Positions 16,901 to 61,250 of a stretch of 64,000 nucleotides of DNA are shown piece by piece. The DNA is from Azolla caroliniana (lineage: Eukaryota > Plantae > Polypodiophyta): the NCBI GenBank assembly GCA_043228905.1, contig JBHGNT010000023.1, positions 248,001 to 312,000 on the forward strand, given 5' to 3'. A model generated the notes under the pieces. That model was not told where the DNA came from. It saw only the letters and a program-made list of their open reading frames with translations, and searched no databases. The position numbers and the translations under genes are program-made. Numbering within the stretch: the first letter of the stretch is position 1; every line of letters begins with the position of its first letter.

Positions 16901-17300
16901 AAATCAATATTTTGAAACTTGGGTCGAGAGACATGAAGAAATTAGTAAATTAGGGGAGGGAGTTGAGAAGAGCGCGTGAGTAAATTAAAATGTTCATAGC
17001 TGGCTCGTGTCATATCGGATTTTAGTGTTCAAACATGCGAATCGAAGCTAGCAACACTAGCTACGATATGGAATTAAAAAAGAAAGATTTTGAAACTCAG
17101 GTCGAGAGACATGAAGAAATTAGTAAATTAGGGGAGGGAGTTGATAAGAGCGCGTAAGTAAATTAAAATGTTCATACCTGGCTCGTGTGATCCCTGGATT
17201 TTGTGTTCAAAGATGCGAATCAAAGCTAACAACACTAGCTATGATATGGAATTAAAAAATCAAGATTTTGAAACTCAGGTCGAGAGACATGAAGAAATTA
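3450..17300 (+). repeat. Near-identical tandem duplication of a 6908-bp (39-monomer) block
   Basis: Rare variants recur at an exact 6908 offset: gacaat 3505/10413, tagtcttc 3741/10649, the 27-bp duplication 4961/11869, tccctgg 10283/17191. 39x178 minus net indels (+27, -48, -6, -6, -1) = 6908. Confidence 0.92.
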
Positions 17301-23900: not shown

Positions 23901-24520
23901 TTAAAATGTTCATAGCTGGCTCGTGTGATATCGGATTTTAGTGTTCAAACATACGAATCGAAGCTAACAACACTTGCTATGATATGGAATTAAAACATCA
24001 AGATTTTGACACTTGGGCCGAGAGACATGAAGAAATTAGTAAATTAGAGGAGGGAGCTAGGAAGAGCGCGTGAGTAAATTAAAATGTTCATAGCTGGCTC
24101 GTGTGATATCGGAATTTTGTGTTCAAACATACGAATCGAAGCTAACAACACTAGCTATGATATGGAATTAAAAAATCAAGATTTTGAAACTCAGGTCGAG
24201 AGACATGAAGATATTAGTAAATTAGAGGTGACGAGAGCGCGTGAGTAAATTAAAATGTTCATACCTGGCTCGTGTGATATCCTATTTTTGTGTTCAAAGA
24301 TGCCAATGGAAGCTCACAACACTAGCTAGGATATGGAATTCAAACATCAAGATTTTGAAACTCAGGTCGACAGATATGAAGAAATTAGTAAATTAGAGGA
24401 GGGAGTTGAGAAGAGCGCTTGAGTAAATTAAAATGTTCATAGCTGGATCGTGTGATATCGGATTTTAGTGTTCAAGCATGCGAATCGAAGCTAACAACAC
24501 TAGCTATGATATGGAATTAA
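20920..24520 (+). repeat. Duplicated satellite block at 2644-bp (15-monomer) offset
   Basis: The 7-bp-deletion monomer gaggtgacgag occurs at 21581 and 24225, with shared flanking variants (gatatcctattt, ccaatggaagctcac). 15x178 - 7 - 19 = 2644. Only part of the interval is duplicated. Confidence 0.8.
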
Positions 24521-35200: not shown

Positions 35201-38200
35201 TTAGTGTTCAAACATGCGAATCGAAGCTACCAACACTAGCTATGATATGGAATTAAAACATCAAGATTTTGAAACTCAGGTCGAGAGACATGAAGAAATT
35301 AGTAAATTAGAGGAGGGAGCTAAGAAGAGCGCGTGAGTAAATTAAAATGTTCATAGCTGGCTCGTGTGATATCGGATTTTAGTGTTCAAACATGCGAATC
35401 GAATCTAACAACAGTAGCTAGGATATGGAATTAAAAAATCAAGATTTTGAAACTCAGGTCCAGAGACATGAAGAAGTTAGTAAATTAGGGGAGGGAGTTG
35501 ACAAGAGCGCGAGAGTAAATTAAAATGTTCATACCTGGCTCGTGTGATCCCGGATTTTTGTCTTCAAACATGGGAATCGAAGCTAACAACAGTAGCTAGG
35601 ATATGGAATTAAAAAATCAAGATTTTGAAACTCAGGTCGACAGATATGAAGAAATTAGTAAATTAGAGGAGGGAGTTGAGAACAGCGTGTGAGTAAATTA
35701 AACTGTTCATAGCTGGCTCGTGTGATATCGGATGTTTGTGTTCAAAGATGCGAATCGAAGCTAACAACACTAGGTATAATATGGAATTAAAAAGTCAAGA
35801 TTTTGAAACTTGGGTCGAGAGACATGGAGAAATTAGTATATTAGGGGAGGGAGTTGAGAAGAGCGCGTGAGTAAATTAAAATGTTCATAGCTGGCTCGTG
35901 TGATCCCGGATTTTTGTGTTCAACCATGCGAATCGAAGCTAACAACACTAGCTAGGATATGGATTTAAAAAATCAAGATTTTGAAATTCAGGTCGAGAGA
36001 TATGAAGAAATTAGTAAATTAGAGGAGGGAGTTGAGAAGAGCGTATGAGTAAATTAAAATGTTCATAGCTGGCTCGTGTGATATCGGATTTTAGTGTTCA
36101 AACATGCGAATCGAAGCTAACAACACTAGCTATGATATGAAATTAAAAAATCAAGATTTTGAAACTCAGGTCGAGAGACATGAAGAAATTAGTAAATTAG
36201 GGGAGGGAGTTGACAAGAGCGCGTGAGTAAATTAAAATGTTCATACCTGGCTCGTGTGATCCCGGATTTTTGTGTTCAAAGATGCCCATCGAAGCTAACA
36301 ACACTAGCTAGGATATGGAATTAAAAAATCAAGATTTTGAAACTTGGGTCGAGAGACATGAAGAAATTAGTAACTTAGAGGAGGGAGTTGAGAAGAGCGC
36401 ATGAGTAAATTAAAATGTTCATAGCTGGCTCGTGTGATATCGGATTTTAGTGTTCAAACATGCGAATCGAAGCTAACAACAGTAGCTACGATATGGAATT
36501 AAAAAATCAAGATTTTGAAACTCAGGTCGACAAATATGAAGAAATTAGTAAATTAGAGGAGGGAGTTGAGAAGAGCGCGTGAGTAAATTAAAATGTTCAT
36601 AGCTGGCTCGTGTGATATCGGATTTTAGTGTTCAAACATGGGAATCGAATCTAACAACAGTAGCTAGGATATGGAATTAAAAAATCAAGATTATGAAACT
36701 CAGGTAGAGAGACATGAAGAAGTTAGTAAATTAGGGGAGGGAGTTGACAAGAGCGCGTGAGTAAATTAAAATGTTCATACCTGGCTCGTGTGATCCCGGA
36801 TTTTTGTGTTCAAAGATGCCCATCGAAGCTAACAACAGTAGCTATGATATGGAATTAAAAAATCAAGATTTTGAAACTTGGGTCGAGAGACATGAGGAAA
36901 TTAGTAAATTAGAGGAGGGAGCTAAGAAGAGCGCGTGAGTAAATTAAAATGTTCATAGCTGGCTCGTGTGATCCCGGATTTTTGTGTTCAACCATGCGAA
37001 TCGAAGCTAACAACACTAGCTAGGATATGGATTTAAAAAATCAAGATTTTGAAATTCAGGTCGAGAGATATGAAGAAATTAGTAAATTAGAGGAGGGAGT
37101 TGAGAAGAGCGTATGAGTAAATTAAAATGTTCATAGCTGGCTCGTGTGATATCGGATTTTAGTGTTCAAACATGCGAATCGAAGCTACCAACACTAGCTA
37201 TGATATGGAATTAAAACATCAAGATTTTGAAACTCAGGTCGAGAGACATGAAGAAATTAGTAAATTAGAGGAGGGAGCTAAGAAGACCGCGTGAGTAAAT
37301 TAAAATGTTCATACCTGGCTCGTGTGATCCCGGATTTTTGTGTTCAAAGATGCCCATCGAAGCTAACAACACTAGCTAGGATATGGAATTAAAAAATCAA
37401 GATTTTGAAACTCAGGTCGAGAAACATGAAGAAATTAGTAAACTAGAGGAGGGAGCTAGGAAGAGCGCGTGAGTAAATTAAAATGTTCATAGCTGGCTCG
37501 TGTGATATCGGATTCTAGTGTTCAAACATGCAAATCGAAGCTAACAATACTAGCTACGATATGGAATTAAAAAATCAAGATTTTGAAACTCAGGTCGAGA
37601 GACATGAAGAAATTAGTAAATTAGAGGAGGGTGTTGACAAGAGCGCGTGAGTAAATTAAAATGTTCATACCTGGCTCGTGTGATCCCGGATTTTTGTGTT
37701 CAAAGATGCCCATCGAAGCTAACAACACTAGCTAGGATTAGGGGAGGGAGTTGACAAGAGCGCGAGAGTAAATTAAAATATTCATAGCTAGCTCGTGTGA
37801 TCCCGGATTTTTGTGTTCAACCATGCGAATCGAAGCTAACAACACTAGCTAGGATATGGAATTAAAAAAACAAGATTTTGAAACTCAGGTCGAGAGATAT
37901 GAAGAAATTAGTAAATTAGAGGAGGGAGTTGAGAAGAGCGCATGAGTAAATTAAAATGTTCATAGCTGGATCGTGTGATATCGGATATTAGTGTTCAAAC
38001 ATGCGAATCGAAGCTACCAACACTAGCTATGATATGGAATTAAAACATCAAGATTTTGAAACTCAGGTCGAGAGACATGAAGAAATTAGTAAATTAGAGG
38101 AGGGAGCTAAGAAGAGCGCGTGAGTAAATTAAAATGTTCATAGCTGGCTCGTGTGATATCGGATTTTAGTGTTCAAACATGCGAATCGAATCTAACAACA

Positions 38201-38950
38201 GTAGCTAGGATATGGAATTAAAAAATCAAGATTTTGAAACTCAGGTCCAGAGACATGAAGAAGTTAGTAAATTAGGGGAGGGAGTTGACAAGAGCGCGAG
38301 AGTAAATTAAAATGTTCATACCTGGCTCGTGTGATCCCGGATTTTTGTCTTCAAACATGGGAATCGAAGCTAACAACAGTAGCTAGGATATGGAATTAAA
38401 AAATCAAGATTTTGAAACTCAGGTCGACAGATATGAAGAAATTAGTAAATTAGAGGAGGGAGTTGAGAACAGCGTGTGAGTAAATTAAACTGTTCATAGC
38501 TGGCTCGTGTGATATCGGATGTTTGTGTTCAAAGATGCGAATCGAAGCTAACAACACTAGGTATAATATGGAATTAAAAAGTCAAGATTTTGAAACTTGG
38601 GTCGAGAGACATGGAGAAATTAGTATATTAGGGGAGGGAGTTGAGAAGAGCGCGTGAGTAAATTAAAATGTTCATAGCTGGCTCGTGTGATCCCGGATTT
38701 TTGTGTTCAACCATGCGAATCGAAGGTAACAACACTAGCTAGGATATGGATTTAAAAAATCAAGATTTTGAAATTCAGGTCGAGAGATATGAAGAAATTA
38801 GTAAATTAGAGGAGGGAGTTGAGAAGAGCGTATGAGTAAATTAAAATGTTCATAGCTGGCTCGTGTGATATCGGATTTTAGTGTTCAAACATGCGAATCG
38901 AAGCTAACAACACTAGCTATGATATGAAATTAAAAAATCAAGATTTTGAA
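29300..38950 (+). repeat. 16-monomer HOR (2787 bp) marked by a 61-bp-deleted monomer; one unit expanded to 24 monomers (4211 bp)
   Basis: The deletion junction ctaggat|taggggaggg occurs at 30741, 34952 and 37739. Spacings are 4211 = 24x178-61 and 2787 = 16x178-61. Boundaries are approximate. Confidence 0.88.
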
Positions 38951-41900
38951 ACTCAGGTCGAGAGACATGAAGAAATTAGTAAATTAGGGGAGGGAGTTGA
39001 CAAGAGCGCGAGAGTAAATTAAAATATTCATAGCTAGCTCGTGTGATCCCGGATTTTTGTGTTCAACCATGCGAATCGAAGCTAACAACACTAGCTAAGA
39101 TATGGAATTAAAAAAACAAGATTTTGAAACTCAGGTCGAGAGATATGAAGAAATTAGTAAATTAGAGGAGGGAGTTGAGAAGAGCGCATGAGTAAATTAA
39201 AATGTTCATAGCTGGATCGTGTGATATCGGATTTTAGTGTTCAAACATGCGAATCGAAGCTACCAACACTAGCTATGATATGGAATTAAAACATCAAGAT
39301 TTTGAAACTCAGGTCGAGAGACATGAAGAAATTAGTAAATTAGAGGAGGGAGCTAAGAAGAGCGCGTGAGTAAATTAAAATGTTCATACCTGGCTCGTGT
39401 GATCCCGGATTTTTGTGTTCAAAGATGCACATCGAAGCTAACAACACTAGCTAGGATATGGAATTAAAAAATCAAGATTTTGAAACTTGGGTCGAGAGAC
39501 ATGAAGAAATTAGTAAATTAGAGGAGGGAGCTAGGAAGAGCGCGTGAGTAAATTAAAATGTTCATACATGGCTCGTGTGATATCGGATTTTAGTGTTCAA
39601 ACATGCAAATCGAAGCTAACAATACTAGCTACGATATGGAATTAAAAAATCAAGATTTTGAAACTCAGGTCGAGAGACATGAAGAAATTAGTAAATTAGA
39701 GGAGGGTGTTGACAAGAGTGCGTTAGTAAATTAAAATGTTCATACCTGGCTCGTGTGATCCCGGATTTTTGTGTTCAAAGATGCCCATCGAAGCTAACAA
39801 CACTAGCTAGGATATGGAATTAAAAAATCAAGATTTTGAAACTTGGGTCGAGAGACATGAAGAAATTAGTAAATTAGAGGAGGGAGTTGATACGAGCGCC
39901 TGAGTAAATTAAAATGTTCATAGCTGGCTCGTGTGATATCGGATTTTAGTGTTTAAACATGCGAATCGAAGCTAACAACAGTAGCTACGATATGGAATTA
40001 AAAAATCAAGATTTTGAAACTCAGGTCGACAAATATGAAGAAATTAGTAAATTAGAGGAGGGAGTTGAGAAGAGCGCGTGAGTAAATTAAAATGTTCATA
40101 GCTGGCTCGTGTGATATCGGATTTTAGTGTTCAAACATGGGAATCGAATCTAACAACAGTAGCTAGGATATGGAATTAAAAAATCAAGATTTTGAAACTC
40201 AGGTAGAGAGACATGAAGAAGTTAGTAAATTAGGGGAGGGAGTTGACAAGAGCGCGTGAGTAAATTAAAATGTTCATACCTGGCTCGTGTGATCCCGGAT
40301 TTTTGTGTTCAAAGATGCCCATCGAAGCTAACAACAGTAGCTATGATATGGAATTAAAAAATCAAGATTTTGAAACTTGGGTCGAGAGACATGAAGAAAT
40401 TAGTAAATTAGAGGAGGGAGCTAAGAAGAGCGCGTGAGTAAATTAAAATGTTCATAGCTGGCTCGTGTGATCCCGGATTTTTGTGTTCAACCATGCGAAT
40501 CGAAGCTAACAACACTAGCTAGGATATGGATTTAAAAAATCAAGATTTTGAAATTCAGGTCGAGAGATATGAAGAAATTAGTAAATTAGAGGAGGGAGTT
40601 GAGAAGAGCGTATGAGTAAATTAAAATGTTCATAGCTGGCTCGTGTGATATCGGATTTTAGTGTTCAAACATGCGAATCGAAGCTACCAACACTAGCTAT
40701 GATATGGAATTAAAACATCAAGATTTTGAAACTCAGGTCGAGAGACATGAAGAAATTAGTAAATTAGAGGAGGGAGCTAAGAAGACCGCGTGAGTAAATT
40801 AAAATGTTCATACCTGGCTCGTGTGATCCCGGATTTTTGTGTTCAAAGATGCCCATCGAAGCTAACAACACTAGCTAGGATATGGAATTAAAAAATCAAG
40901 ATTTTGAAACTCAGGTCGACAGATATGAAGAAATTAGTAAATTAGAGGAGGGAGTTGAGAACAGCGTGTGAGTAAATTAAACTGTTCATAGCTGGCTCGT
41001 GTGATATCGGATGTTTGTGTTCAAAGATGCGAATCGAAGCTAACAACACTAGGTATAATATGGAATTAAAAAGTCAAGATTTTGAAACTTGGGTCGAGAG
41101 ACATGGAGAAATTAGTATATTAGGAGAGGGAGTTGAGAAGAGCGCGTGAGTAAATTAAAATGTTCATAGCTGGCTCGTGTGATCCCGGATTTTTGTGTTC
41201 AACCATGCGAATCGAAGCTAACAACACTAGCTAGGATATGGATTTAAAAAATCAAGATTTTGAAATTCAGGTCGAGAGATATGAAGAAATTAGTAAATTA
41301 GAGGAGGGAGTTGAGAAGAGCGTATGAGTAAATTAAAATGTTCATAGCTGGCTCGTGTGATATCGGATTTTAGTGTTCAAACATGCGAATCGAAGCTAAC
41401 AACACTAGCTATGATATGAAATTAAAAAATCAAGATTTTGAAACTCAGGTCGAGAGACATGAAGAAATTAGTAAATTAGGGGAGGGAGTTGACAAGAGCG
41501 CGAGAGTAAATTAAAATATTCATAGCTAGCTCGTGTGATCCCGGATTTTTGTGTTCAACCATGCGAATCGAAGCTAACAACACTAGCTAAGATATGGAAT
41601 TAAAAAAACAAGATTTTGAAACTCAGGTCGAGAGATATGAAGAAATTAGTAAATTAGAGGAGGGAGTTGAGAAGAGCGCATGAGTAAATTAAAATGTTCA
41701 TAGCTGGATCGTGTGATATCGGATTTTAGTGTTCAAACATGCGAATCGAAGCTACCAACACTAGCTATGATATGGAATTAAAACATCAAGATTTTGAAAC
41801 TCAGGTCGAGAGACATGAAGAAATTAGTAAATTAGAGGAGGGAGCTAAGAAGAGCGCGTGAGTAAATTAAAATGTTCATACCTGGCTCGTGTGATCCCGG

Positions 41901-43300
41901 ATTTTTGTGTTCAAAGATGCCCATCGAAGCTAACAACACTAGCTAGGATATGGAATTAAAAAATCAAGATTTTGAAACTTGGGTCGAGAGACATGAAGAA
42001 ATTAGTAAATTAGAGGAGGGAGCTAGGAAGAGCGCGTGAGTAAATTAAAATGTTCATACATGGCTCGTGTGATATCGGATTTTAGTGTTCAAACATGCAA
42101 ATCGAAGCTAACAATACTAGCTACGATATGGAATTAAAAAATCAAGATTTTGAAACTCAGGTCGAGAGACATGAAGAAATTAGTAAATTAGAGGAGGGTG
42201 TTGACAAGAGTGCGTTAGTAAATTAAAATGTTCATACCTGGCTCGTGTGATCCCGGATTTTTGTGTTCAAAGATGCCCATCGAAGCTAACAACACTAGCT
42301 AGGATATGGAATTAAAAAATCAAGATTTTGAAACTTGGGTCGAGAGACATGAAGAAATTAGTAAATTAGAGGAGGGAGCTAGGAAGAGCGCGTGAGTAAA
42401 TTAAAATGTTCATACATGGCTCGTGTGATATCGGATTTTAGTGTTCAAACATGCAAATCGAAGCTAACAATACTAGCTACGATATGGAATTAAAAAATCA
42501 AGATTTTGAAACTCAGGTCGAGAGACATGAAGAAATTAGTAAATTAGAGGAGGGTGTTGACAAGAGTGCGTTAGTAAATTAAAATGTTCATACCTGGCTC
42601 GTGTGATCCCGGATTTTTGTGTTCAAAGATGCCCATCGAAGCTAACAACACTAGCTAGGATATGGAATTAAAAAATCAAGATTTTGAAACTTGGGTCGAG
42701 AGACATGAAGAAATTAGTAAATTAGAGGAGGGAGTTGATACGAGCGCGTGAGTAAATTAAAATGTTCATAGCTGGCTCGTGTGATATCGGATTTTAGTGT
42801 TTAAACATGCGAATCGAAGCTAACAACAGTAGCTACGATATGGAATTAAAAAATCAAGATTTTGAAACTCAGGTCGACAAATATGAAGAAATTAGTAAAT
42901 TAGAGGAGGGAGTTGAGAAGAGCGCGTGAGTAAATTAAAATGTTCATAGCTGGCTCGTGTGATATCGGATTTTAGTGTTCAAACATGGGAATCGAATCTA
43001 ACAACAGTAGCTAGGATATGGAATTAAAAAATCAAGATTTTGAAACTCAGGTAGAGAGACATGAAGAAGTTAGTAAATTAGGGGAGGGAGTTGACAAGAG
43101 CGCGTGAGTAAATTAAAATGTTCATACCTGGCTCGTGTGATCCCGGATTTTTGTGTTCAAAGATGCCCATCGAAGCTAACAACAGTAGCTATGATATGGA
43201 ATTAAAAAATCAAGATTTTGAAACTTGGGTCGAGAGACATGAGGAAATTAGTAAATTAGAGGAGGGAGCTAAGAAGAGCGCGTGAGTAAATTAAAATGTT
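38400..43300 (+). repeat. 14-monomer HOR (2492 bp) x2, second copy with an internal dimer duplication
   Basis: ctagctaagat occurs at 39091 and 41583 (offset 2492 = 14x178). The variant gagtgcgttagta occurs once in the first copy (~39720) and twice, 356 bp apart, in the second (~42210, ~42570). Confidence 0.8.
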
Positions 43301-46068
43301 CATACCTGGCTCGTGTAATCCCGGGATTTTGTGTTCAAATATGCGAATCGAAGCTAACAACACTAGCTTTAATATGGAATTAAAAAATCAAGATTTTGAA
43401 ACTCAGGTCGAGAGACATGAACAAATTAGTAAATTAGGGGAGGGAGTTGACAAGAGCGCGTGAGTAAATTAAAATGTTCATACCTGGCTCATGTGATCCC
43501 GGATTTTTGTGTTCAAAGATGCGAATCGAAGCTAACAACAGTAGCTATGATATGGAATTAAAAAATCAAGATTTTGAAACTTGGGTCGAGAGACATGAAG
43601 AAATTAGTAAATTAGAGGAGGGAGCTAAGAAGAGCGCGTGAGTAATGTAAAATGTTCATAGCTGGCTCGTGTGATATCGGATTTTAGTGTTCAAACACTA
43701 GCTATGATATGAAATGAAAAAATAAAGATTTTGAAACTCAGGTCGAGAGACACGAAGAAATTAGTAAATTAGAGGAGGGTGTTGACAAGAGCGCGTAAGT
43801 AAATTAAAATGTTCATACCTAGCTCGTGTGATATCGGATATTAGTGTTCAAAGATGCGAATCGAAGCTAACAACACTAGCTATGATATGGAATTAAAAAA
43901 TCGAGATTTCGAAACTTGGGTCGAGAGACATGAAGAAATTAGTAAATTAGGGGAGGGAGTCTAGAAGAGCGCGTGAGTAAATTAAAATGTTCATACCTGG
44001 CTCGTGTGATCCCGGATTTTTGTGTTCAAAGATGCGAATCGAAGCTAACAACACTAGCTATGATATGGAATTAAAAAATCAAGATTTTGAAACTTGGGTC
44101 GAGAGACATGAAGAAATTAGGAAATTAGAGGAGGGAGCTAAGAAGAGCGCGTGAGTAAATTAAAATGTTCATACCTGGCTCGTGTGATCCCGGGATTTTG
44201 TGTTCAAAGATGTGAATCGAAGCTAACAACACTAGCTATGATATGGAATTAAAAAATGAAGATTTTGAAACTTAGGTTGAGAGACATGAAGAAATTAGTA
44301 AATTAGAGGAGGGAGCTAAGAAGAGCGCGTGAGTAAATTAAAATCAAGATTTTGCTGGCTCGTGTGATATCGGATTTTTGTGTTGAAGCATGTGAATCGA
44401 AGCTACCAACACTAGCAAGGATATGGAATTAAAAAATCAAGATTTTGAAACTCAGGTCGAGAGACATGAAGAAATTAGTAAATTAGGGGAGGGAGTTGAT
44501 AAGAGCGTGTAAGTAAATTAAAATGTTCATACCTGGCTCGTGTGATTCCGGGATTTTGTGTTCAAAGATGCGAATCGAAGCTAACAACACTAGCTGTGAT
44601 ATGGAATTAAAAAATCAAGATTTTGAAAATCAGGTCCAGAGACATGAAGAAGTTAGTAAATTAGAGGAGGGTGTTGACAAGAGCGCGTGAGTAAATTAAA
44701 ATGTTCATACCTGGCTCGTGTGATCCCGGATTTTTGTGTTCAAAGATGCCAATCGAAGCTAACAACACTAGCTATGATATGGAATTAAAAAATCAAGATT
44801 TTGAAACTTGGGTCGAGAGACATGAAGAAATTAGTAAATTAGGGGAGGGAGTTGAGAAGAGCGCGTGAGTAAATTAAAATGTTCATAGCTGGCTCGTGTA
44901 ATATCGGATTTTAGTGTTCAAACATGCAAATCGAAGCTAACAATACTTGCTACGATATGGAATTAAAAAATCAAGATTTTGAAACTTGGGTCGAGAGACA
45001 TGAAGAAATTAGTAAATTAGAGGAGGGAGCTAAGAAGAGCGCGTGAGTAAATTAAAATGTTCATACCTGGCTCGTGTAATCCCGGGATTTTGTGTTCAAA
45101 GATGCGAATCGAAGCTAACAACACTAGCTATGATATGGAATTAAAAAATCAAGATTTTGAAACTCAGGTCGAGAGACATGAAGAAATTAGTAAATTAGAG
45201 GAGGGAGCTAAGAAGAGCGCGTGAGTAAATTAAAATGTTCATACCTGGCTCGTGTGATCCCGGATTTTTGTGTTCAAAGATGCCCATCGAAGCTAACAAC
45301 ACTAGCTAGGATATGGAATTAAAAAATCAAGATTTTGAAACTTGGGTCGAGAGACATGAAGAAATTAGTAAATTAGAGGAGGGAGCTAAGAAGAGCGCGT
45401 GAGTAAATTAAAATGTTCATAGCTGGCTCGTGTGATATCGGATTTTAGTGTTCAAACACTAGCTATGATATGAAATGAAAAAATAAAGATTTTGAAACTC
45501 AGGTCGAGAGACACGAAGAAATTAGTAAATTAGAGGAGGGTGTTGACAAGAGCGCGTGAGTAAATTAAAATGTTCATACCTAGCTCGTGTGATATCGGAT
45601 ATTAGTGTTCAAAGATGCCAATCGAAGCTAACAACACTAGCTATGATATGGAATTAAAAAATCGAGATTTCGAAACTTGGGTCGAGAGACATGAAGAAAT
45701 TAGTAAATTAGGGGAGGGAGTTGAGAAGAGCGCGTGAGTAAATTAAAATGTTCATACCTGGCTCGTGTGATCCCGGATTTTTGTGTTCAAAGATGCGAAT
45801 CGAAGCTAACAACACTAGCTATGATATGGAATTAAAAAATCAAGATTTTGAAATTCAGGTCGAGAGACATGAACAAATTAGTAAATTAGGGGAGGGAGTT
45901 GACAAGAGCGCGTGAGTAAATTAAAATGTTCATACCTGGCTCGTGTGATCCTGGATTTTTGTGTTTTACTAGGACCAAATGGTCGAAACAAGGAGTGCGT
46001 AGAGATAGGCACAAGACGATTAGAGGGTGCTTAAGCTAAACAAGAGAAAGTAGGCAACATACACTAAT

Positions 46069-46094
46069 GAGAGAGAGAGAGAGAGAGAGAGAGA
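46069..46094 (+). repeat. (GA)13 microsatellite in the PLE 3' region
   Basis: Read directly from the sequence. Confidence 0.95.
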
Positions 46095-46139
46095 TGTTTT
46101 TAATTCAAAGAGGGAGAGATGTTTTTAATTCAAAGAGGG
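46089..46139 (+). repeat. 25-bp direct repeat x2 (gagagatgtttttaattcaaagagg)
   Basis: atgtttttaattcaaagaggg occurs at 46094 and 46119. Confidence 0.92.
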
Positions 46140-46142
46140 TGG

Positions 46143-46197
46143 TGGTCTTAGGCAAACTAGTTTCGCTCAATAGTGGAGCTCTTCAGTGCAAAGACCA
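46143..46197 (-). ncRNA. Minimal type I hammerhead ribozyme (PLE-associated)
   Basis: The minus strand reads UGGUCUU-U-GCA CUGAAGA GCUC-cacuauu-GAGC GAAA C-ua-G UU/ UGC-CU-AAGACCA. It has the full CUGANGA and GAAA cores, a 4-bp stem II, a 3+7-bp stem I with an internal loop, and a very short stem III inside the palindrome AAACUAGUUU. Predicted cleavage after GUU, between 46155 and 46154. Confidence 0.9.
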
Positions 46198-46307
46198 TTA
46201 CAACAAGAGAATGTGATTTATAAAGGGGTGGGAAGGAAGAGGGAGTGAGAGAAAAAGGAGTGGGGAGGATTTGATTTGTGTAGTAGATGAGAGAGAATAG
46301 AATGTGG

Positions 46308-46311
<4 letters not shown>

Positions 46312-46353
<42 letters not shown>
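46312..46353 (+). repeat. (GA)21 microsatellite in the PLE 3' region
   Basis: Read directly from the sequence. Confidence 0.95.
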
Positions 46354-46356
<3 letters not shown>

Positions 46357-46459
46357 GTGTGTAGGAAAGTGATAGGGAATGAGAGAAGGGAAATTAGTAT
46401 AATGATGATGGTGAGGGGGGAGTTTTTAATGTGATGAAAAAGGGGGATTTGGGATAATA

Positions 46460-46663
46460 TTAAGTGGGGGATGTGGGTGAATTATTTGAAAACTTAGTGT
46501 TAAGTGGGGGATTTGGGTGGATTGTTTGAAACTTTAGTCTTAAGTGGGGGATTTGGGTGGATTGTTTGAAAATTTAGTCTTAAGTGGGGGATTTTGGTGG
46601 ATTGTTTGAAAACTTAGTTTTAAGTGGGGGATTTTGGTGGATTTTTTGAAAACTTGGTCTTAA
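46460..46663. repeat. 40-bp minisatellite x5 overlapping the RT stop codon
   Basis: taagtgggggatttkggtggattgtttgaaaacttagtct-like units start at 46461, 46501, 46541, 46581 and 46621. Confidence 0.95.
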
Positions 46664-47501
46664 CTAGGAGGGCATGTAAGGACTTAGATTTTGTCCAACA
46701 TACGAAAGGGCGTGAGATGCTTGTAAGCTCGGGATCTAACATTAAGTCATTATAGAGATTTTTTAGAAAACTATGAATGCCTAGTTTTGGGGTATGTTTG
46801 GTGTATCTAAGTTTAAAGATTGTGGGGTTAAGGGAAGTAATAGTTTTGGGTTGATATAGGAGTGTTTTTCTAAGACTAAAAGGTATTTTCTTATAGCTTT
46901 TTAGTATAAAGGATGGAGGGTAACCACGGTTAACTAGTCTATTGAAAAAGAGTTTTTTCATTTGGTAGAAACCTAATGGGGTGCTTTCTCTAATAAGATA
47001 TCTCTTCACTTCATTAGTGATAAAGTGTTGTTTCGTATGGGAAGGATGATCCGATGAAAAAGGCAAGTATTGGTATGAATTGAGATGTTTTTGAAAACAA
47101 TTGAATAAGAAAGATGAATTTTCGAGGTTGATCCATATGTCTAAAAAAGGTAGCCGAAAGGGGGAAGTTTGAATGGTAAGCTTGATGGAGTTATTTGTGT
47201 GTGAAGGGTAAAAGTCGAGATATTCTAAAAGTTGAGATTTGGTGCCTGTCCAGACCCCAAATGCATCATCAATATAGCGGGTGAAGTAGAAGAGATGGGG
47301 GGGCGATGGTTGTAAGTTTTCGAGATATACTAAAAAGAGGCATGCATATACGACTGAAAAGTTGCTACCCATGGCCGTACCTTTTATTTGTTGGTAAACT
47401 ACGTCATCGAAAGTGAGATAGTGATATTCTAAAATAAGGGCACTAAGGGTATAGATGAGATTTGTTTTCGAAGGGGAAAACATGCAAATCGAAGCTAACA
47501 A
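46620..47501 (-). CDS. Penelope-like reverse transcriptase, C-terminal half (motifs B' to E plus thumb). 5'-truncated; the first ~8 codons are satellite-derived; no C-terminal GIY-YIG domain
   Basis: PLE signature motifs: YQQIKGTAMGSNFS..YACLFL (B'), FTRYIDDAFGVW (C), LPFLDI (E), FQK...YQYLPFSSDHP..TK, LVNRGYPPSFI, SLHALLV. Motif A and the fingers are absent. The frame has no internal stops. The ORF-track start is a TTG inside the satellite; an in-frame ATG at 47483 is also satellite sequence. Probably non-functional. Confidence 0.88.
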   Translation of the reverse strand: MLASICMFSPSKTNLIYTLSALILEYHYLTFDDVVYQQIKGTAMGSNFSVVYACLFLVYLENLQPSPPHLFYFTRYIDDAFGVWTGTKSQLLEYLDFYPSHTNNSIKLTIQTSPFRLPFLDIWINLENSSFLFNCFQKHLNSYQYLPFSSDHPSHTKQHFITNEVKRYLIRESTPLGFYQMKKLFFNRLVNRGYPPSFILKSYKKIPFSLRKTLLYQPKTITSLNPTIFKLRYTKHTPKLGIHSFLKNLYNDLMLDPELTSISRPFVCWTKSKSLHALLVKTKFSKNPPKSPT

Positions 47502-49928
47502 TACTAGCTACGATATGGAATTAAAAAATCAAGATTTTGAAACTCAGGTCGAGAGACATGAAGAAATTAGTAAATTAGAGGAGGGAGTTGAGAAGAGCGC
47601 GTGAGTAAATTAAAATGTTCATAGCTGGATCGTGTGATATCGGATTTTAGTGTTCAAACATGCGAATCGAAGCTAACAACACTAGCTATGATATGGAATT
47701 AAAAAATCAAGATTTTGAAACTCAGGTCGAGAGACATGAAGAAATTAGTATATTAGAGGAGGGTGTTGATAAGAGCGCGTGAGTAAATTAAAATGTTCAT
47801 ACCTGGCTCGTGTGATCCCGGATTTTTGTGTTCAAAGATGCCCATCGAAGCTAACAACACTAGGTATAATATGGAATTAAAAAATCAAGATTTTGAAACT
47901 TGGGTCGAGAGACATGGAGAAATTAGTAAATTAGGGGAGGGAGTTGAGAAGAGCGCGTGAGTAAATTAAAATGTTCATACCTGGCTCGTGTGATCCCGGA
48001 TTTTTGTGTTCAACCATGCGAATCGAAGCTAACAACACTAGCTAGGATATGGAATTAAAAAATCAAGATTTCGAAACTCAGGTCGAGAGATATGAAGAAA
48101 TTAGTAAATTAGAGGAGGGAGTTGAGAAGAGCGCATGAGTAAATTAAAATGTTCATAGCTGGATCGTGTGATATCAGATTTTAGTGTTCAAACATGCGAA
48201 TCGAAGCTAACAATACTAGCTACGATATGGAATTAAAAAATCAAGATTTTGAAACTTGGGTCGAGAGACATGAAGAAATTAGTAAATTAGAGGAGGGAGC
48301 TAAGAAGAGCGCGTGAGTAAATTAAAATGTTCATACCTGGCTCGTGTAATCCCGGGATTTTATGTTCAAAGATGCGAATCGAAGCTAACAACACTAGCTT
48401 TAATATGGAATTAAAAAATGAAGATTTTGAAACTCAGGTTGAGAGACATGAACAAATTAGTAAATTAGGGGAGGGAGTTGACAAGAGCGCGTGAGTAAAT
48501 TAAAATGTTCATACCTGGCTCGTGTGATCCCGGATTTTTGTGTTCAAAGATGCGAATCGAAGCTAACAACAGTAGCTATGATATGGAATTAAAAAATCAA
48601 GATTTTGAAACTTGGGTCGAGAGACATGACCAAATTAGTAAATTAGAGGAGGGAGTTGAGAAGAGCGCATGAGTAAATTAAAATGTTCATAGCTGGATCG
48701 TGTGATATCAGATTTTAGTGTTCAAACATGCGAATCGAAGCTAACAATACTAGCTACGATATGGAATTAAAAAATCAAGATTTTGAAACTTGGGTCGAGA
48801 GACATGAAGAAATTAGTAAATTAGAGGAGGGAGCTAAGAAGAGCGCGTGAGTAAATTAAAATGTTCATACCTGGCTCGTGTAATCCCGGGATTTTATGTA
48901 CAAAGATGCGAATCGAAGCTAACAACACTAGCTTTAATATGGAATTAAAAAATCAAGATTTTGAAACTCAGGTCGAGAGACATGAACAAATTAGTAAATT
49001 AGGGGAGGGAGTTGACAAGAGCGCGTGAGTAAATTAAAATGTTCATACCTGGCTCGTGTGATCCCGGATTTTTGTGTTCAAAGATGCGAATCGAAGCTAA
49101 CAACAGTAGCTATGATATGGAATTAAAAAATCAAGATTTTGAAACTTGGGTCGAGAGACATGACGAAATTACGAAATTAGAGGAGGGAGCTAAGAAGAGC
49201 GCGTGAGTAAATTAAAATGTTCATACCTGGCTCGTGTGATCCCGGATTTTTGTGTTCAAAGATGCGCATCGAAGCTAAAAACAGTAGCTATGATATGGAA
49301 TTAAAAAATCAAGATTTTGAAACTCAGGTCGAGAGACACGAAGAAATTAGTAAATTAGAGGAGGGTGTTGACAAGAGCGCGTAAGTAAATTAAAATGTTC
49401 ATACCTAGCTCGTGTGATATCGGATATTAGTGTTCAAAGATGCCAATCGAAGCTAACAACACTAGCTATGATATGGAATTAAAAAATCGAGATTTCGAAA
49501 CTTGGGTCGAGAGACATGAAGAAATTAGCAAATTAGGGGAGGGAGTTGAGAAGAGCGCGTGAGTAAATTAAAATGTTCATACCTGGCTCGTGTGATCCCG
49601 GATTTTTGTGTTCAAAGATGCGAATCGAAGCTAAAAACAGTAGCTATGATATGGAATTAAAAAATCAAGATTTTGAAACTTGGGTCGAGAGACATGAAGA
49701 AATTAGTAAATTAGAGGAGGGAGATGAGAAGAGCGCGTGAGTAAATTAAAATGTTCATAGCTGGATCGTGTGATATCGGATTTTAGTGTTCAAACATGCG
49801 AATCGAAGCTAACAACACTAGCTATGATATGGAATTAAAAAATCAAGATTTTGAAACTCAGGTCGAGAGACATGAAGAAATTAGTATATTAGAGGAGGGT
49901 GTTGATAAGAGCGCGTGAGTAAATTAAA

Positions 49929-50045
49929 GTTGCTACCCATGGCCGTACCTTTTATTTGTTGGTAAACTACGTCATCGAAAGTGAGATAGTGATATTCTAA
50001 AATAAGGGCACTAAGGGTATAGATGAGATTTGTTTTCGAAGGGGA
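49929..50045 (-). mobile_element. 117-bp PLE RT fragment, copy 1 (equals 47361-47477)
   Basis: gttgctacccatggcc...ttttcgaagggga matches the 5'-most end of the truncated PLE and has the same right junction. Confidence 0.95.
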
Positions 50046-51428
50046 AAACATGCAAATCGAAGCTAACAATACTAGCTACGATATAGAATTAAAAAATCAA
50101 GATTTTGAAACTCAGGTCGAGAGACATGAAGAAATTAGTAAATTAGAGGAGGGAGTTGAGAAGAGCGCGTGAGTAAATTAAAATGTTCATAGCTGGATTG
50201 TGTGATATCGGATTTTAGTGTTCAAACATGCGAATCGAAGCTAACAACACTAGCTATGATATGGAATTAAAAAATCAAGATTTTGAAACTCAGGTCGAGA
50301 GACATGAAGAAATTAGTATATTAGAGGAGGGTGTTGATAAGAGCGCGTGAGTAAATTAAAATATTCATACCTGGCTCGTGTGATCCCGGATTTTTGTGTT
50401 CAAAGATGCCCATCGAAGCTAACAACACTAGGTATAATATGGAATTAAAAAATCAAGATTTTGAAACTTGGGTCGAGAGACATGGAGAACTTAGTAAATT
50501 AGGGGAGGGAGTTGAGAAGAGCGCGTGAGTAAATTAAAATGTTCATAGCTGGCTCGTGTGATCCCGGATTTTTGTGTTCAACCATGCGAATCGAAGCTAA
50601 CAACACTAGCTAGGATATGGAATTAAAAAATCAAGATTTCGAAACTCAGGTCGAGAGATATGAAGAAATTAGTAAATTAGAGGAGGGAGTTGAGAAGAGC
50701 GCATGAGTAAATTAAAATGTTCATAGCTGGATCGTGTGATATCAGATTTTAGTGTTCAATCATGCGAATCGAAGCTAACAATACTAGCTACGATATGGAA
50801 TTAAAAAATCAAGATTTTGAAACTTGGGTCGAGAGACATGAAGAAATTAGTAAATTAGAGGAGGGAGCTAAGAAGAGCGCGTGAGTAAATTAAAATGTTC
50901 ATACCTGGCTCGTGTAATCCCGGGATTTTGTGTTCAAAGATGCGAATCGAAGCTAACAACACTAGCTTTAATATGGAATTAAAAAATCAAGATTTTGAAA
51001 CTCAGGTCGAGAGACATGAACAAATTAGTAAATTAGGGGAGGGAGTTGAGAAGAGCGCGTGAGTAAATTAAAATGTTCATACCTGGCTCGTGTGATCCCG
51101 GATTTTTGTGTTCAAAGATGCGAATCGAAGCTAACAACAGTAGCTATGATATGGAATTAAAAAATCAAGATTTTGAAACTTGGGTCGAGAGACATGAAGA
51201 CATTAGTAAATTAGAGGAGGGAGTTGAGAAGAGCGCGTGAGTAAATTAAAATGTTCATAGCTGGATCGTGTGATATCGGATTTTAGTGTTCAAACATGCG
51301 AATCGAAGCTAACAACACTAGCTATGATATGGAATTAAAAAATCAAGATTTTGAAACTCAGGTCGAGAGACATGAAGAAATTAGTATATTAGAGGAGGGT
51401 GTTGATAAGAGCGCGTGAGTAAATTAAA

Positions 51429-51545
51429 GTTGCTACCCATGGCCGTACCTTTTATTTGTTGGTAAACTACGTCATCGAAAGTGAGATAGTGATATTCCAA
51501 AATAAGGGCACTAAGGGTATAGATGAGATTTGTTTTCGAAGGGGA
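51429..51545 (-). mobile_element. 117-bp PLE RT fragment, copy 2
   Basis: Same junctions, 1500 bp after copy 1. Carries the SNP attccaa instead of attctaa. Confidence 0.95.
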
Positions 51546-52928
51546 AAACATGCAAATCGAAGCTAACAATACTAGCTACGATATGGAATTAAAAAATCAA
51601 GATTTTGAAACTCAGGTCGAGAGACATGAAGAAATTAGTAAATTAGAGGAGGGAGTTGAGAAGAGCGCGTGAGTAAATTAAAATGTTCATAGTTGGATCG
51701 TGTGATATCGGATTTTAGTGTTCAAACATGCGAATCGAAGCTAACAACACTAGCTATGATATGGAATTAAAAAATCAAGATTTTGAAACTCAGGTCGAGA
51801 GACATGAAGAAATTAGTATATTAGAGGAGGGTGTTGATAAGAGCGCGTGAGTAAATTAAAATGTTCATACCTGGCTCGTGTGATCCCAGATTTTTGTGTT
51901 CAAAGATGCCCATCGAAGCTAACAACACTAGGTATAATATGGAATTAAAAAATCAAGATTTTGAAACTTGGGTCGAGAGACATGGAGAAATTAGTAAATT
52001 AGGGGAGGGAGTTGAGAAGAGTGCGTGAGTAAATTAAAATGTTCATACCTGGCTCGTGTGATCCCGGATTTTTGTGTTCAACCATGCGAATCGAAGCTAA
52101 CAACACTAGCTAGGATATGGAATTAAAAAATCAAGATTTCGAAACTCAGGTCGAGAGATATGAAGAAATTAGTAAATTAGAGAAGGGAGTTGAGAAGAGC
52201 GCATGAGTAAATTAAAATGTTCATAGCTGGATCGTGTGATATCAGATTTTAGTGTTCAAACATGCGAATCGAAGCTAACAATACTAGCTACGATATAGAA
52301 TTAAAAAATCAAGATTTTGAAACTTGGGTCGAGAGACATGAAGAAATTAGTAAATTAGAGGAGGGAGCTAAGAAGAGCGCGTGAGTAAATTAAAATGTTC
52401 ATACCTGGCTCGTGTAATCCCGGGATTTTGTGTTCAAAGATGCGAATCGAAGCTAACAACACTAGCTTTAATATGGAATTAAAAAATCAAGATTTTGAAA
52501 CTCAGGTCGAGAGACATGAACAAATTAGTAAATTAGGGGAGGGAGTTGAGAAGAGCGCGTGAGTAAATTAAAATGTTCATACCTGGCTCGTGTGATCCCG
52601 GATTTTTGTGTTCAAAGATGCGAATCGAAGCTAACAACAGTAGCTATGATATGGAATTAACAAATCAAGATTTTGAAACTTGGGTCAAGAGACATGAAGA
52701 AATTAGTAAATTAGAGGAGGGAGTTGAGAAGAGCGCGTGAGTAAATTAAAATGTTCATAGCTGGATCGTGTGATATCGGATTTTAGTGTTCAAACATGCG
52801 AATCGAAGCTAACAACACTAGCTATGATATGGAATTAAAAAATCAAGATTTTGAAACTCAGGTCGAGAGACATGAAGAAATTAGTATATTAGAGGAGGGT
52901 GTTGATAAGAGCGCGTGAGTAAATTAAA

Positions 52929-53045
52929 GTTGCTACCCATGGCCGTACCTTTTATTTGTTGGTAAACTACGTCATCGAAAGTGAGATAGTGATATTCCAA
53001 AATAAGGGCACTAAGGGTATAGATGAGATTTGTTTTCGAAGGGGA
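52929..53045 (-). mobile_element. 117-bp PLE RT fragment, copy 3
   Basis: Same junctions, 1500 bp after copy 2. Shares the attccaa SNP with copy 2. Confidence 0.95.
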
Positions 53046-54427
53046 AAACATGCAAATCGAAGCTAACAATACTAGCTACGATATGGAATTAAAAAATCAA
53101 GATTTTGAAACTCAGGTCGAGAGACATGAAGAAATTAGTAAATTAGAGGAGGGAGTTGAGAAGAGCGCGTGAGTAAATTAAAATGTTCATAACTGGATCG
53201 TGTGATATCGGATTTTAGTGTTCAAACATGCGAATCGAAGCTAACAACACTAGCTATGATATGGAATTAAAAAATCAAGATTTTGAAACTCAGGTTGAGA
53301 GACATGAAGAAATTAGTATATTAGAGGAGGGTGTTGATAAGAGCGCGTGAGTAAATTAAAATGTTCATACCTGGCTCGTGTGATCCTAGATTTTTGTGTT
53401 CAAAGATGCCCATCGAAGCTAACAACACTAGGTATAATATGGAATTAAAAAATCAAGATTTTGAAACTTGGGTCGAGAGACATGGAGAAATTAGTAAATT
53501 AGGGGAGGGAGTTGGGAAGAGCGCGTGAGTAAATTAAAATGTTCATACCTGGCTCGTGTGATCCCGGATTTTTGTGTTCAACCATGCGAATCGAAGCTAA
53601 CAACACTAGCTAGGATATGGAATTAAAAAATCAAGATTTCGAAACTCAGGTCGAGAGATATGAAGAAATTAGTAAATTAGAGAAGGGAGTTGAGAAGAGC
53701 GCATGAGTAAATTAAAATGTTCATAGCTAGATCGTGTCATATCAGATTTTAGTGTTCAAACATGCGAATCGAAGCTAACAATACTAGCTACGATATAGAA
53801 TTAAAAAATGAAGATTTTGAAACTTGGGTCGAGAGACATTAAGAAATTAGTAAATTAGAGGAGGGAGCTAAGAAGAGCGCGTCAGTAAATTAAAATGTTC
53901 ATACCGGGCTCGTGTAATCCCGGGATTTTGTGTTCAAAGATGCGAATCGAAGCTAACAACACTAGCTTTAATATGGAATTAAAAAATCAAGATTTTGAAA
54001 CTCAGGTCGAGAGACATGAACAAATTAGTAAATTAGGGGAGGGAGTTGACAAGAGCGCGTGAGTAAATTAAAATGTTCATACCTGGCTCGTGTGATCCCG
54101 GATTTTTGTGTTCAAAGATGCGAATCGAAGCTAACAACAGTAGCTATGATATGGAATTAAAAAATCAAGATTTTGAAACTTGGGTCGAGAGACATGAAGA
54201 AATTAGTAAATTAGAGGAGGGAGTTGAGAAGAGCGCGTGAGTAAATTAAAATGTTCATAGCTGGATCGTGTGATATCGGATTTTAGTGTTCAAACATGCG
54301 AACGAAGCTAACAACACTAGCTATGATATGGAATTAAAAAATCAAGATTTTGAAACTCAGGTCGAGAGACATGAAGAAATTAGTATATTAAAGGAGGGTG
54401 TTGATAAGAGCGCGTGAGTAAATTAAA

Positions 54428-54544
54428 GTTGCTACCCATGGCCGTACCTTTTATTTGTTGGTAAACTACGTCATCGAAAGTGAGATAGTGATATTCTAAA
54501 ATAAGGGCACTAAGCGTATAGATGAGATTTGTTTTCGAAGGGGA
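54428..54544 (-). mobile_element. 117-bp PLE RT fragment, copy 4
   Basis: Same junctions, 1499 bp after copy 3 because of a 1-bp deletion near 54302. Private SNP taagcgtata. Confidence 0.95.
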
Positions 54545-55299
54545 AAACATGCAAATCGAAGCTAACAATACTAGCTACGATATGGAATTAAAAAATCAAG
54601 ATTTTGAAACTCAGGTCGAGAGACATGAAGAAATTAGTAAATTAGAGGAGGGAGTTGAGAAGAGCGCGTGAGTAAATTAAAATGTTCATAGCTGGATCGT
54701 GTGATATCGGATTTTAGTGTTCAAACATGCGAATCGAAGCTAACAACACTAGCTATGATATGGAATTAAAAAATCAAGATTTTGAAACTCAGGTCGAGAG
54801 ACATGAAGAAATTAGTATATTAGAGGAGGGTGTTGATAAGAGCGCGTGAGTAAATTAAAATGTTCATACCTGGCTCGTGTGATCCCGGATTTTTGTGTTC
54901 AAAGATGCCCATCGAAGCTAACAACACTAGCTAGGATATGGAATTAAAAAATCAAGATTTCGAAACTCAGGTCGAGAGATATGAAGAAATTAGTAAATTA
55001 GAGGAGGGAGTTGAGAAGAGCGCATGAGTAAATTAAAATGTTCATAGCTGGATCGTGTGATATCAGATTTTAGTGTTCAAACATGCGAATCGAACCTAAC
55101 AACACTAGCTATGATATGGAATTGAAAAATCAAGATTTTGAAACTCAGGTCGAGAGACATGAAGAAATTAGTATATTAGAGGAGGGTGTTGATAAGAGCG
55201 TGTGAGTAAATTAAAATGTTCACACCTGGCTCGTGTGATCCCGGATTTTTGTGTTCAAAAATGCCCATCGAAGCTAACAACACTAGCTAGGATATGGAA

Positions 55300-61200: not shown

Positions 61201-61250
61201 AATTAAAATGTTCATTCCTGGCTCGTGTGATCCCGGATTTTTGTGTTCAA
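55300..61250 (+). repeat. 11-monomer HOR (1938 bp) x3, third copy with one extra monomer
   Basis: cactttctat occurs at 57041, 58979 and 61095. Spacings are 1938 = 11x178-20 and 2116 = 1938+178. Each unit carries the 21-bp-deleted monomer (~55970, ~57910, ~60025). Confidence 0.88.

What the first reader, a model, noticed from the sequence alone, without database searches (positions are those of the whole stretch)
45966..47477. Young Penelope-like retroelement without a C-terminal endonuclease inside a centromere-like satellite array
Seen: the only non-satellite DNA in 64 kb is a PLE-type RT with an unbroken ~285-codon frame, which suggests a recent insertion. The ORF stops just after the thumb/linker (SLHALLVKTKF...), where Penelope, Poseidon, Neptune and Naiad elements continue into GIY-YIG. 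I see no GIY-YIG remnant in the low-complexity 3' region. Known: PLEs lacking a C-terminal EN are either EN-deficient telomeric types (Athena, Coprina) or permuted N-terminal-EN types (Chlamys). The well-known satellite colonisers are LTR elements or LINEs (ATHILA, CRM, Zepp-like, G2/Jockey-3). Inference: this could be a satellite- or centromere-resident PLE family with an N-terminal or absent EN. One copy cannot demonstrate targeting.
Basis: partly seen in the sequence, partly recalled or inferred. Interest (0 to 1): 0.85.

Follow-up and report, generated by a model that had tools for sequence, protein, structure and literature searches.

The report
Endonuclease-less Penelope copy stranded in satellite
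This is a broken-off, little-mutated copy of a plant jumping gene in whose full-length relatives no DNA-cutting enzyme was found; nearly all flanks seen for those relatives are not satellite, so it likely patched a chance break in the satellite rather than targeting it, and the array holds four more copies of one of its ends.

Summary
The insert is real: 45966-47477, minus strand, a 5'-truncated Penelope-like (PLE) RT with 285 open codons in a 178-bp satellite. It is not the only non-satellite DNA: its 5' 117 bp recur four times at 1.5-kb spacing. Full-length relatives (up to 98% DNA identity) settle the architecture: ~5-kb tandem units with a helical ORF1, a predicted -1 frameshift, an RT that ends where the window ORF ends, and a 3' hammerhead motif. 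No GIY-YIG was found at either end. The RT groups with Selaginella, Ginkgo and Cryptomeria RT-only proteins and matches the known endonuclease-less 'Selagine1', not Chlamys. Satellite targeting is not supported: 1 of 40 junctions of relatives is satellite, 2 are telomeric, 37 neither (short-read contigs, biased against satellite). Unlike the telomeric archetype, this subfamily has no telomere-complementary letters at its 3' end, while a sister subfamily that has them joins telomere repeats. Best reading: endonuclease-independent insertion at a chance break, then array turnover. The scan noted this family before on other DNA of this genome (e1-10619883, e1-10599046). Centromere identity is untested. 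Interest 0.33.

The parts
1..64000 (+). 178-bp satellite array, two alternating monomer types with higher-order repeats; 62,020 of 64,000 bases; no TTTAGGG or CCCTAAA heptamer in the window
45966..47477 (-). 5'-truncated endonuclease-less Penelope-like insertion; no target duplication; one base (C) of the monomer missing; 3-nt microhomology (47478-47480) at the 5' junction
   Evidence: 97.8% identical over 1,512 bp to L004
46620..47477 (-). 3' half of ORF2 (RT): motif B QIKGTAMGSNF, motif C YIDD at 47276-47265, thumb, natural stop at 46622-46620; lacks ORF1 and about 335 N-terminal RT residues including motif A
   Evidence: 93% identical to 622-aa P0002
46460..46663 (-). 40-bp tandem repeat (5.1 copies) spanning the stop codon, also present in L004
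46144..46196 (-). type I hammerhead motif with palindromic short helix III (ACTAGT); predicted cut after 46155, 189 nt from the element's 3' end
   Evidence: Rfam HH9 only weakly, E 2.8; core invariant and 93.9% of cells paired in 12 family sequences, 4 pairs with two-sided change; cleavage untested
45973..45999 (-). conserved CGCACTCC motif plus GACC-ATTT-GGTC hairpin; in tandem units it lies 52-57 nt before the ORF1 ATG; 3' ends of copies cluster just behind it (likely RT start signal)
49929..50045 (-). copy 1 of the insert's 5' 117 bp, first of the ~1.5-kb higher-order units; left junction has AAA microhomology
   Evidence: junction seen in run X7
51429..51545 (-). copy 2 of the 117-bp fragment (1 mismatch)
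52929..53045 (-). copy 3 of the 117-bp fragment (1 mismatch)
54428..54544 (-). copy 4 of the 117-bp fragment (1 mismatch)

Best explanation
The insert is a 5'-truncated copy of a two-ORF Penelope-like retroelement with no detectable endonuclease, from the land-plant lineage of Selaginella 'Selagine1', which was likely reverse-transcribed onto a pre-existing DNA break in the satellite rather than onto a site it chose. Shown: family anatomy (ORF1, RT, hammerhead motif, head-to-tail units of 4.7-6.1 kb), absence of a detectable GIY-YIG, the blunt 3' junction, 3-nt microhomology at the 5' junction, no target duplication, and dispersal of relatives. Inferred: ORF1 and RT are made as a fusion by -1 frameshifting; the hammerhead cuts tandem transcripts to unit length; the RT starts just behind the CGCACTCC hairpin, using the + strand 3' end ...GGATTTTTGTGTT as primer, copies across the hammerhead site (so the template was uncut, circular or jumped), stops in mid-RT and is joined by microhomology. 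Afterwards a template switch at AAA duplicated the 5' junction, and array turnover amplified it into four 1.5-kb units. The copy lacks ORF1 and motif A and is predicted to be dead.
For: Full-length RTs of 577-636 aa end where the window ORF ends, 11 of 12 hits; Pfam finds GIY-YIG only in the 27% outlier P0013. A GIY-YIG profile built from 14 fetched EN+ relatives finds 11 held-out proteins at E<=1.3e-6 but nothing better than E 0.093 in six frames of 61 loci and the window region. ORF1: no nuclease family in 10 ORF1s, core predicted all-helical, pLDDT 84, no PDB match. A AAA AAC slip site in frame 117-120 nt before the RT ATG, followed by a stem-loop, in 32 of 34 loci examined. RT tree: 100% SH-like clade of 33 RT-only rows with Selaginella, Ginkgo, Cryptomeria. 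44 of 76 residues identical to Selagine1 across motifs A-B, counted by eye from Fig. S1 of PMC8557442. Junctions: 37 of 40 neither satellite nor telomere, 6 of 6 for L001-L004. 9 of 20 3' junctions, and the window's, end 26-46 nt after the conserved motif. No CCCTAAA between hammerhead and 3' end in 21 of 26 cases, including the window's subfamily; the subfamily that has them (L024, L025, L031) includes a copy joined to (CCCTAAA)n.
Against: No whole genome was held, so insertion sites come from short-read contigs that collapse satellites; 60 of 61 loci carry assembly names of one series and are not independent hosts. 2 of 61 loci do touch a related satellite (L014, L057), and one mixed loose-end consensus in run X8 holds an 11-nt satellite match. 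The two flanks are in register but of a monomer combination seen in only 3 of 183 typed junctions, which a simple single break does not require. 11 of 20 3' ends do not lie at the motif. Junction boundaries were picked by hand and some may be internal divergence. The tree holds no named Coprina, Athena or Chlamys reference. Frameshifting, cleavage and priming are untested.
Confidence: 0.74

Rival explanations
1. The subfamily is drawn to the satellite or centromere: ORF1 tethers the RNP to centromeric chromatin, or the RT prefers the telomere-like G/T-rich stretch GGATTTTTGTGTT exposed at satellite breaks.
For: This copy; L014 and L057 touch a related satellite; an 11-nt satellite match in a mixed X8 loose end; one X4 contig carries TTTAGGG-type letters inserted 7 bp from the same monomer phase; another copy's 3' flank is (GT)n (X5).
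Against: 37 of 40 junctions and 6 of 6 for the closest loci are not satellite; of 11 junction-like loose-end rows in four runs none is clearly satellite by eye (24 of 44 rows shown); L014 lies in the opposite orientation and at another phase.
Confidence: 0.09
2. The element lacks its own endonuclease but is inserted at nicks made in trans by another element's or a host nuclease, i.e. ordinary target-primed reverse transcription with a borrowed enzyme.
For: The subfamily has many near-identical dispersed copies, a lot for chance breaks; an L1-type element with an AP endonuclease flanks L019/L021; the two flanks here join in register.
Against: No target duplication here; no shared target motif is apparent in the printed junctions; none of the 33 rows of the plant clade carries a GIY-YIG.
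Confidence: 0.1
3. The copy was added to a broken chromosome end, as telomeric EN- PLEs are, and was later internalised by fusion or recombination with more satellite.
For: Sister subfamilies join telomere repeats (L031, L032); satellite and TTTAGGG letters meet in one contig; the flanks may come from different monomers.
Against: No telomere heptamer in 64 kb; both flanks are on the same strand and in register to within 1 bp.
Confidence: 0.05
4. It is a Chlamys, Naiad or PLE-X element whose N-terminal endonuclease or CxC region was cut off by 5' truncation.
For: PLE-X families are EN-, carry hammerheads and occur in early-diverging plants (PMC8557442 section 9); this was my reading.
Against: Motif A to B spacing 58 aa, as in canonical PLEs, so no IFD; no CxC in P0002; no GIY-YIG upstream; closest printed sequence is Selagine1.
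Confidence: 0.02

Closest known systems
Selaginella moellendorffii EN- PLE 'Selagine1' (Sm1/Sm2 of Gladyshev & Arkhipova 2007; that paper not seen, names Sm1/Sm2 and their filing under Coprina come from earlier scan notes and recall; sequence seen in Fig. S1 of PMC8557442)
   Same: RT signature GTAMGSNF[AS]VVYAC, no IFD, no EN; canonical type I hammerhead in the repeat (PMC4209133, passages); two ORFs and 4-6 kb size of EN- PLEs (PMC6431247 section 8).
   Different: The window's subfamily has no reverse-complement telomere repeats next to the hammerhead and is seen at internal sites; the host is another plant (a fern by earlier notes, not tested here).
Conifer EN(-) PLEs (Lin et al. 2016; paper not held, seen only as cited in PMC9033089 passages)
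   Same: EN-less plant PLEs; Cryptomeria and Ginkgo RT-only proteins fall in the same 100% clade at 38-41% identity.
   Different: Their chromosomal distribution could not be read, so internal insertion may already be described for them.
Athena/Terminon elements of bdelloid rotifers (PMC6431247 section 8; PMC8557442 Fig. 1 legend)
   Same: EN-, coiled-coil-type ORF1, frameshift with downstream structure, 3' hammerhead, head-to-tail chains.
   Different: Telomere-attached through C-rich repeats beside the ribozyme; giant units; not placed in my tree.
PLE-X families of Chara and Selaginella (Chlamys group; PMC8557442 section 9)
   Same: EN- with hammerhead, insert away from telomeres (genome-wide in Chara, 28S rDNA in Selaginella) by an unknown route.
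   Different: They carry CxC and CxCx1-8C motifs and belong to the IFD-bearing Chlamys group; this RT has neither CxC nor IFD.

Membership tests
Penelope-like elements | RT of the PLE clade | tested here: met
   All named and GIY-YIG-bearing hits are PLE-type RTs; 44 of 76 residues identical to Selagine1; DK motif SDKNMG. No non-PLE outgroup was in the tree.
Penelope-like elements | 5' truncation and partial tandem (pseudo-LTR) arrangement with hammerhead | tested here: met
   Window copy truncated in RT; tandem units in L002, L009, L011, L017, L022 and others; hammerhead core on the sense strand in 39 of 61 loci
EN+ PLEs (Penelope/Poseidon, Neptune, Nematis, Hydra) | C-terminal GIY-YIG endonuclease | tested here: not met
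   Full-length relatives stop at the same residue; Pfam and custom profile negative with positive controls
Chlamys / Naiad | N-terminal GIY-YIG endonuclease | tested here: not met
Chlamys / Naiad / PLE-X | IFD between RT motifs A and B; CxC motif | tested here: not met
   A-B spacing 58 aa against 59-60 in EN+ P0013 and P0059; no CxC in P0002; compare Fig. S1
Telomere-associated EN- PLEs (Selagine1/Coprina/Athena type) | No EN; ORF1 plus RT ORF, optionally joined by a frameshift with downstream structure | tested here: met
Telomere-associated EN- PLEs (Selagine1/Coprina/Athena type) | Reverse-complement telomere repeats next to the 3' hammerhead | tested here: not met
   None in the window or in L002-L004; absent in 21 of 26 cases, present in sister subfamilies L022, L024, L025, L029, L031
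Telomere-associated EN- PLEs (Selagine1/Coprina/Athena type) | Location at or near chromosome ends | tested here: inconclusive
   No telomere heptamer in the window; 2 of 40 junctions of relatives telomeric; chromosome position of the window unknown
Coprina clade (formal placement) | Groups with fungal Coprina RTs in a reference PLE tree | not testable with these tools
   No named Coprina, Athena or Chlamys protein was available to the tree tool; only the printed A-B segment could be compared by eye
Centrophilic retroelements (CRM, ATHILA type behaviour) | Independent copies enriched in centromeric satellite | tested here: inconclusive
   1 of 40 junctions and 2 of 61 loci touch satellite, which speaks against strong targeting, but the contigs are biased against satellite
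Centrophilic retroelements (CRM, ATHILA type behaviour) | Array is CENH3-bound | not testable with these tools
   no ChIP data

The most novel reading that the evidence does not exclude
A plant lineage of telomere-type, endonuclease-less Penelope elements has left the telomere by losing the telomere-complementary letters at a fixed RT start site. Subfamilies that keep them prime on telomeres; those that lost them spread through the genome as break-patching RTs and compete with telomerase for G/T-rich 3' ends, including a fragile spot in this satellite where a telomere-repeat insert lies 7 bp away. This would give a natural paired system for how a retroelement inserts inside chromosomes with no endonuclease.
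Probability: 0.3. Interest if true: 0.6.

Novelty: new variant of a known kind. Interest (0 to 1): 0.33.

Why it matters
EN- PLEs are described as generally restricted to chromosome ends, and how EN-less families insert internally is stated as open in PMC8557442 (section 9, for PLE-X). This family is young, multi-copy, has intact full-length members, and comes as sister subfamilies with and without telomere letters at the same 3' position, so the priming rule can be tested on genomes and in vitro. The satellite-targeting idea that gave the finding its score is not supported, and EN- PLEs are already known from Selaginella and conifers, so the gain is modest. The four amplified junction fragments are a clean small example of satellite turnover absorbing element DNA.

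Tried and rejected
Whole-genome survey: no genome held. Pfam on the window ORF alone: 0 families. PDB sequence search with P0002: 0 hits. Rfam: hammerhead only below threshold. Maximum-likelihood tree with the default method did not finish; FastTree was used (P0049 dropped for low coverage, 121 of 122 rows). ORF1: Atlas gave no usable hit, homolog search only 3 close family members, fold search no match, weak pairwise similarity to the N-terminal part of Ginkgo P0033 (E 6e-4). Host naming from the L003 flanking homeodomain: Atlas hits under 0.9, uninformative. Expression: no RNA holder listed, no evidence either way. Summed contig depths were not used as copy numbers. A shared TT at 3' junctions was considered and dropped (4 of about 16 contigs, rows selected by that feature). 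Chlamys/PLE-X reading rejected. Two primary papers were not held (PMC5850863, PMC4860704), and Gladyshev & Arkhipova 2007 was not requested. Scan look-ups by sequence, by nearby place and by one word set returned nothing.
Full report
Observation. The window is one 178-bp satellite array on a single strand; 62,020 of 64,000 bases match a monomer, and 214 full monomers average 92% identity. The insert lies at 45966-47477 as stated. Its minus strand holds 285 open codons of RT ending at 46622-46620. It is not the only foreign DNA: four 117-bp pieces at 49929, 51429, 52929 and 54428 are copies (0-1 mismatch) of the insert's 5' end together with the satellite that follows it.

Full-length family. 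A search for longer relatives gave 12 proteins; 11 are RT-only proteins of 577-636 aa, the best (P0002, 622 aa) 93% identical, and they end at the same place as the window ORF. Only the 27% outlier P0013 has a GIY-YIG (8 proteins scanned). Run X1 holds a 2,070-bp contig that matches 885 bp of the insert with 3 differences and runs on 1,185 bp upstream, so longer near-identical copies exist in the same species label. A scan of metagenome contigs gave 61 loci; L004 is 97.8% identical over the whole insert and differs at 5 of 861 ORF bases, 3 silent. About 8 positions separate the window copy from the majority of contigs in the runs, roughly 0.5%: young, but not brand new.

Architecture. The loci show head-to-tail units of 4.7-6.1 kb (three loci measured): ORF1 of about 810 aa, then the RT ORF overlapping it in the -1 frame. 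In 32 of the 34 loci examined (those of the 61 whose match reaches the RT start) an A AAA AAC heptamer lies in frame 117-120 nt before the RT ATG and is followed by a stem-loop of -17 to -34 kcal/mol; programmed frameshifting is inferred from established -1 frameshift signals. ORF1 has a conserved core and long Asn-Pro and Pro-rich tracts. Pfam finds no nuclease in 10 ORF1s; the core folds as long helices only, pLDDT 84, with no PDB match. A GIY-YIG profile built from 14 fetched EN+ proteins detects 11 held-out proteins at E<=1.3e-6 and nothing under E 0.093 in six frames of the 61 loci and window 44001-49000. So no endonuclease is detectable at either end.

RNA signals. A type I hammerhead core is present on the sense strand in 39 of 61 loci and at window 46144-46196. 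Rfam alone scores it below threshold, but across 12 family sequences the core is invariant, 93.9% of cells pair and 4 of 15 pairs change on both sides (related sequences, so this is support, not proof). Behind it lies a conserved CGCACTCC motif with a small hairpin, 52-57 nt before the ORF1 ATG of the next unit. 9 of 20 hand-picked 3' junctions, and the window's, end 26-46 nt after this motif; 11 end elsewhere.

Placement. Named relatives are from Cryptomeria (38-41%), Selaginella (39%), Ginkgo (39%) and Closterium (30-38%) (best 120 of 266 listed). In a FastTree tree of 121 rows the window RT sits in a 100% clade of 33 rows with the three land-plant sets, none with a GIY-YIG. Motifs A and B are 58 residues apart, as in canonical PLEs, and there is no CxC, which excludes Chlamys, Naiad and PLE-X as defined in PMC8557442 (parts 1-2 of 10, section 9, passages and supplement part 54 read). 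The one supplement row with this RT's motif-B signature is Selagine1, listed with Athena and Coprina among IFD-less PLEs; 44 of 76 residues are identical by eye. The host is a land plant by inference: TTTAGGG letters joined to the satellite in one contig and the plant relatives. 'Fern' comes from earlier unchecked notes and was not tested.

Targeting test. I took 40 element/host junctions from 28 of the 61 loci (for boundaries, for the test; boundaries picked by hand). One flank is satellite (L014, a 194-bp repeat 70% like the window's, in the opposite orientation and another phase), two are telomere repeats (L031 3', L032 5'), 37 are neither. For the four closest loci it is 6 of 6 neither; flanks include a homeodomain gene. 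Whole-locus BLAST adds a 44-bp satellite match at the end of L057, so 2 of 61 loci touch satellite. Laying four runs on the insert (24 of 44 loose-end rows shown) gave 11 rows that look like junctions of other copies; by eye none is clearly satellite, one is (GT)n, and one mixed consensus of 7 contigs in X8 holds an 11-nt satellite match. These are short-read contigs that under-sample satellite, and 60 of 61 loci come from one series of assemblies, so mild enrichment is not excluded; strict targeting is.

Telomere link. Telomeric EN- PLEs carry reverse-complement telomere repeats beside the hammerhead (PMC6431247 section 8; PMC8557442). Here 21 of 26 hammerhead-to-3'-end segments have none, including the window's subfamily; five have them. 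In the L024/L025/L031 subfamily the letters right behind the hairpin are telomere-like, and L031 joins (CCCTAAA)n exactly there. The contrast rests on one telomere-joined 3' end.

Junctions and mechanism. There is no target duplication; the monomer's C at gtgtt|c|aaa is missing; the 5' junction shares TTT with the element; the 3' junction is blunt. This fits endonuclease-independent insertion at a break (established for other retroelements; recalled). The copy spans the predicted ribozyme cut by 189 nt, so its template was uncut, circular or jumped; circular templates for PLEs are proposed in PMC4209133 (part 1 of 4 and passages). The flanks are in register but of a type combination seen in 3 of 183 typed monomer junctions, so loss of whole monomers cannot be excluded. 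One X4 contig has AGGGTTTAGGGTTT inserted after window-equivalent 45780, 7 bp from the same phase: a single hint that this stretch breaks or primes telomerase-family enzymes.

Later history. The fragments' left junction uses AAA shared by satellite and element; the units differ by 13-22 of 1,290 bases, and spacings of 2,568 and 1,500 bp differ by six monomers. Run X7 holds this junction. One template switch followed by array expansion explains all four.

What is known. EN- PLEs are listed for Selaginella and conifers (PMC9033089 passages; PMC12477314 passages). A centromere atlas notes Penelope in satellite arrays of chordates and names LTR lineages for plants (bioRxiv 10.64898/2026.09.17.752431, passages). 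I found no paper on fern PLEs or plant PLEs in satellites in ten searches of the held library (listings only, one guessed genus name among the terms). Lin et al. 2016 and Arkhipova et al. 2017 were not held and Gladyshev & Arkhipova 2007 was not seen; they, and supplements I could not read, may already describe internal EN- insertions.

Verdict. A real, young, dead copy of an EN-less plant PLE, a non-telomeric variant of the Selagine1 type, lying in the satellite most likely by chance. New variant of a known kind; interest 0.33.

Noticed in passing
   Followed up: yes
run X4, window-equivalent 45780 (table 5c): Satellite contig with two telomere repeats (AGGGTTTAGGGTTT) inserted, depth 175, 7 bp from the phase of the PLE insertion; looks like telomerase healing of a satellite break.
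   Followed up: partly
L031:6192-6302 and L032:1-106: Sister subfamily with CCCTAAA letters behind the 3' hairpin: one copy's 3' end joins (CCCTAAA)n, another is capped by (CCCTAAA)n at its truncated 5' end.
   Followed up: partly
L014:5503-6096: 194-bp satellite about 70% like the window's 178-bp monomer over 115 bp, joined to a tandem copy's ORF1; suggests an old satellite family with variable monomer length.
   Followed up: partly
L003:1222-3651 and relatives: ORF1 encodes long Asn-Pro runs from (AACCCT)n, which read like vertebrate-type telomere repeats in DNA but are in frame and vary in length between subfamilies.
   Followed up: no
L001:5506 and 5761: Two hammerhead regions in tandem about 255 bp apart, the second with a mutated core (CTTAAGA); a possible short dimer-forming or retrozyme-like derivative.
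   Followed up: no
P0036-P0038 (Closterium, 1,028-1,043 aa) and P0033 (Ginkgo): Annotated as single long proteins with a helical-looking N-terminal half before the RT; may be ORF1-RT fusions of the same lineage (weak match to L048 ORF1, E 6e-4).
   Followed up: partly
window 4935-4991, 11843-11899; 30622-30857, 34833-35068, 37620-37855; 157/158-bp monomers: Repeated internal duplications and deletions in monomers mark larger higher-order units of about 6.9, 4.2, 2.8 and 1.9-2.1 kb in the array.
   Followed up: no
L019/L021:1-2900, minus strand: An L1-type element (zinc-knuckle ORF1, AP endonuclease ORF2) lies head-to-head against the 5' end of a PLE copy.
   Followed up: no
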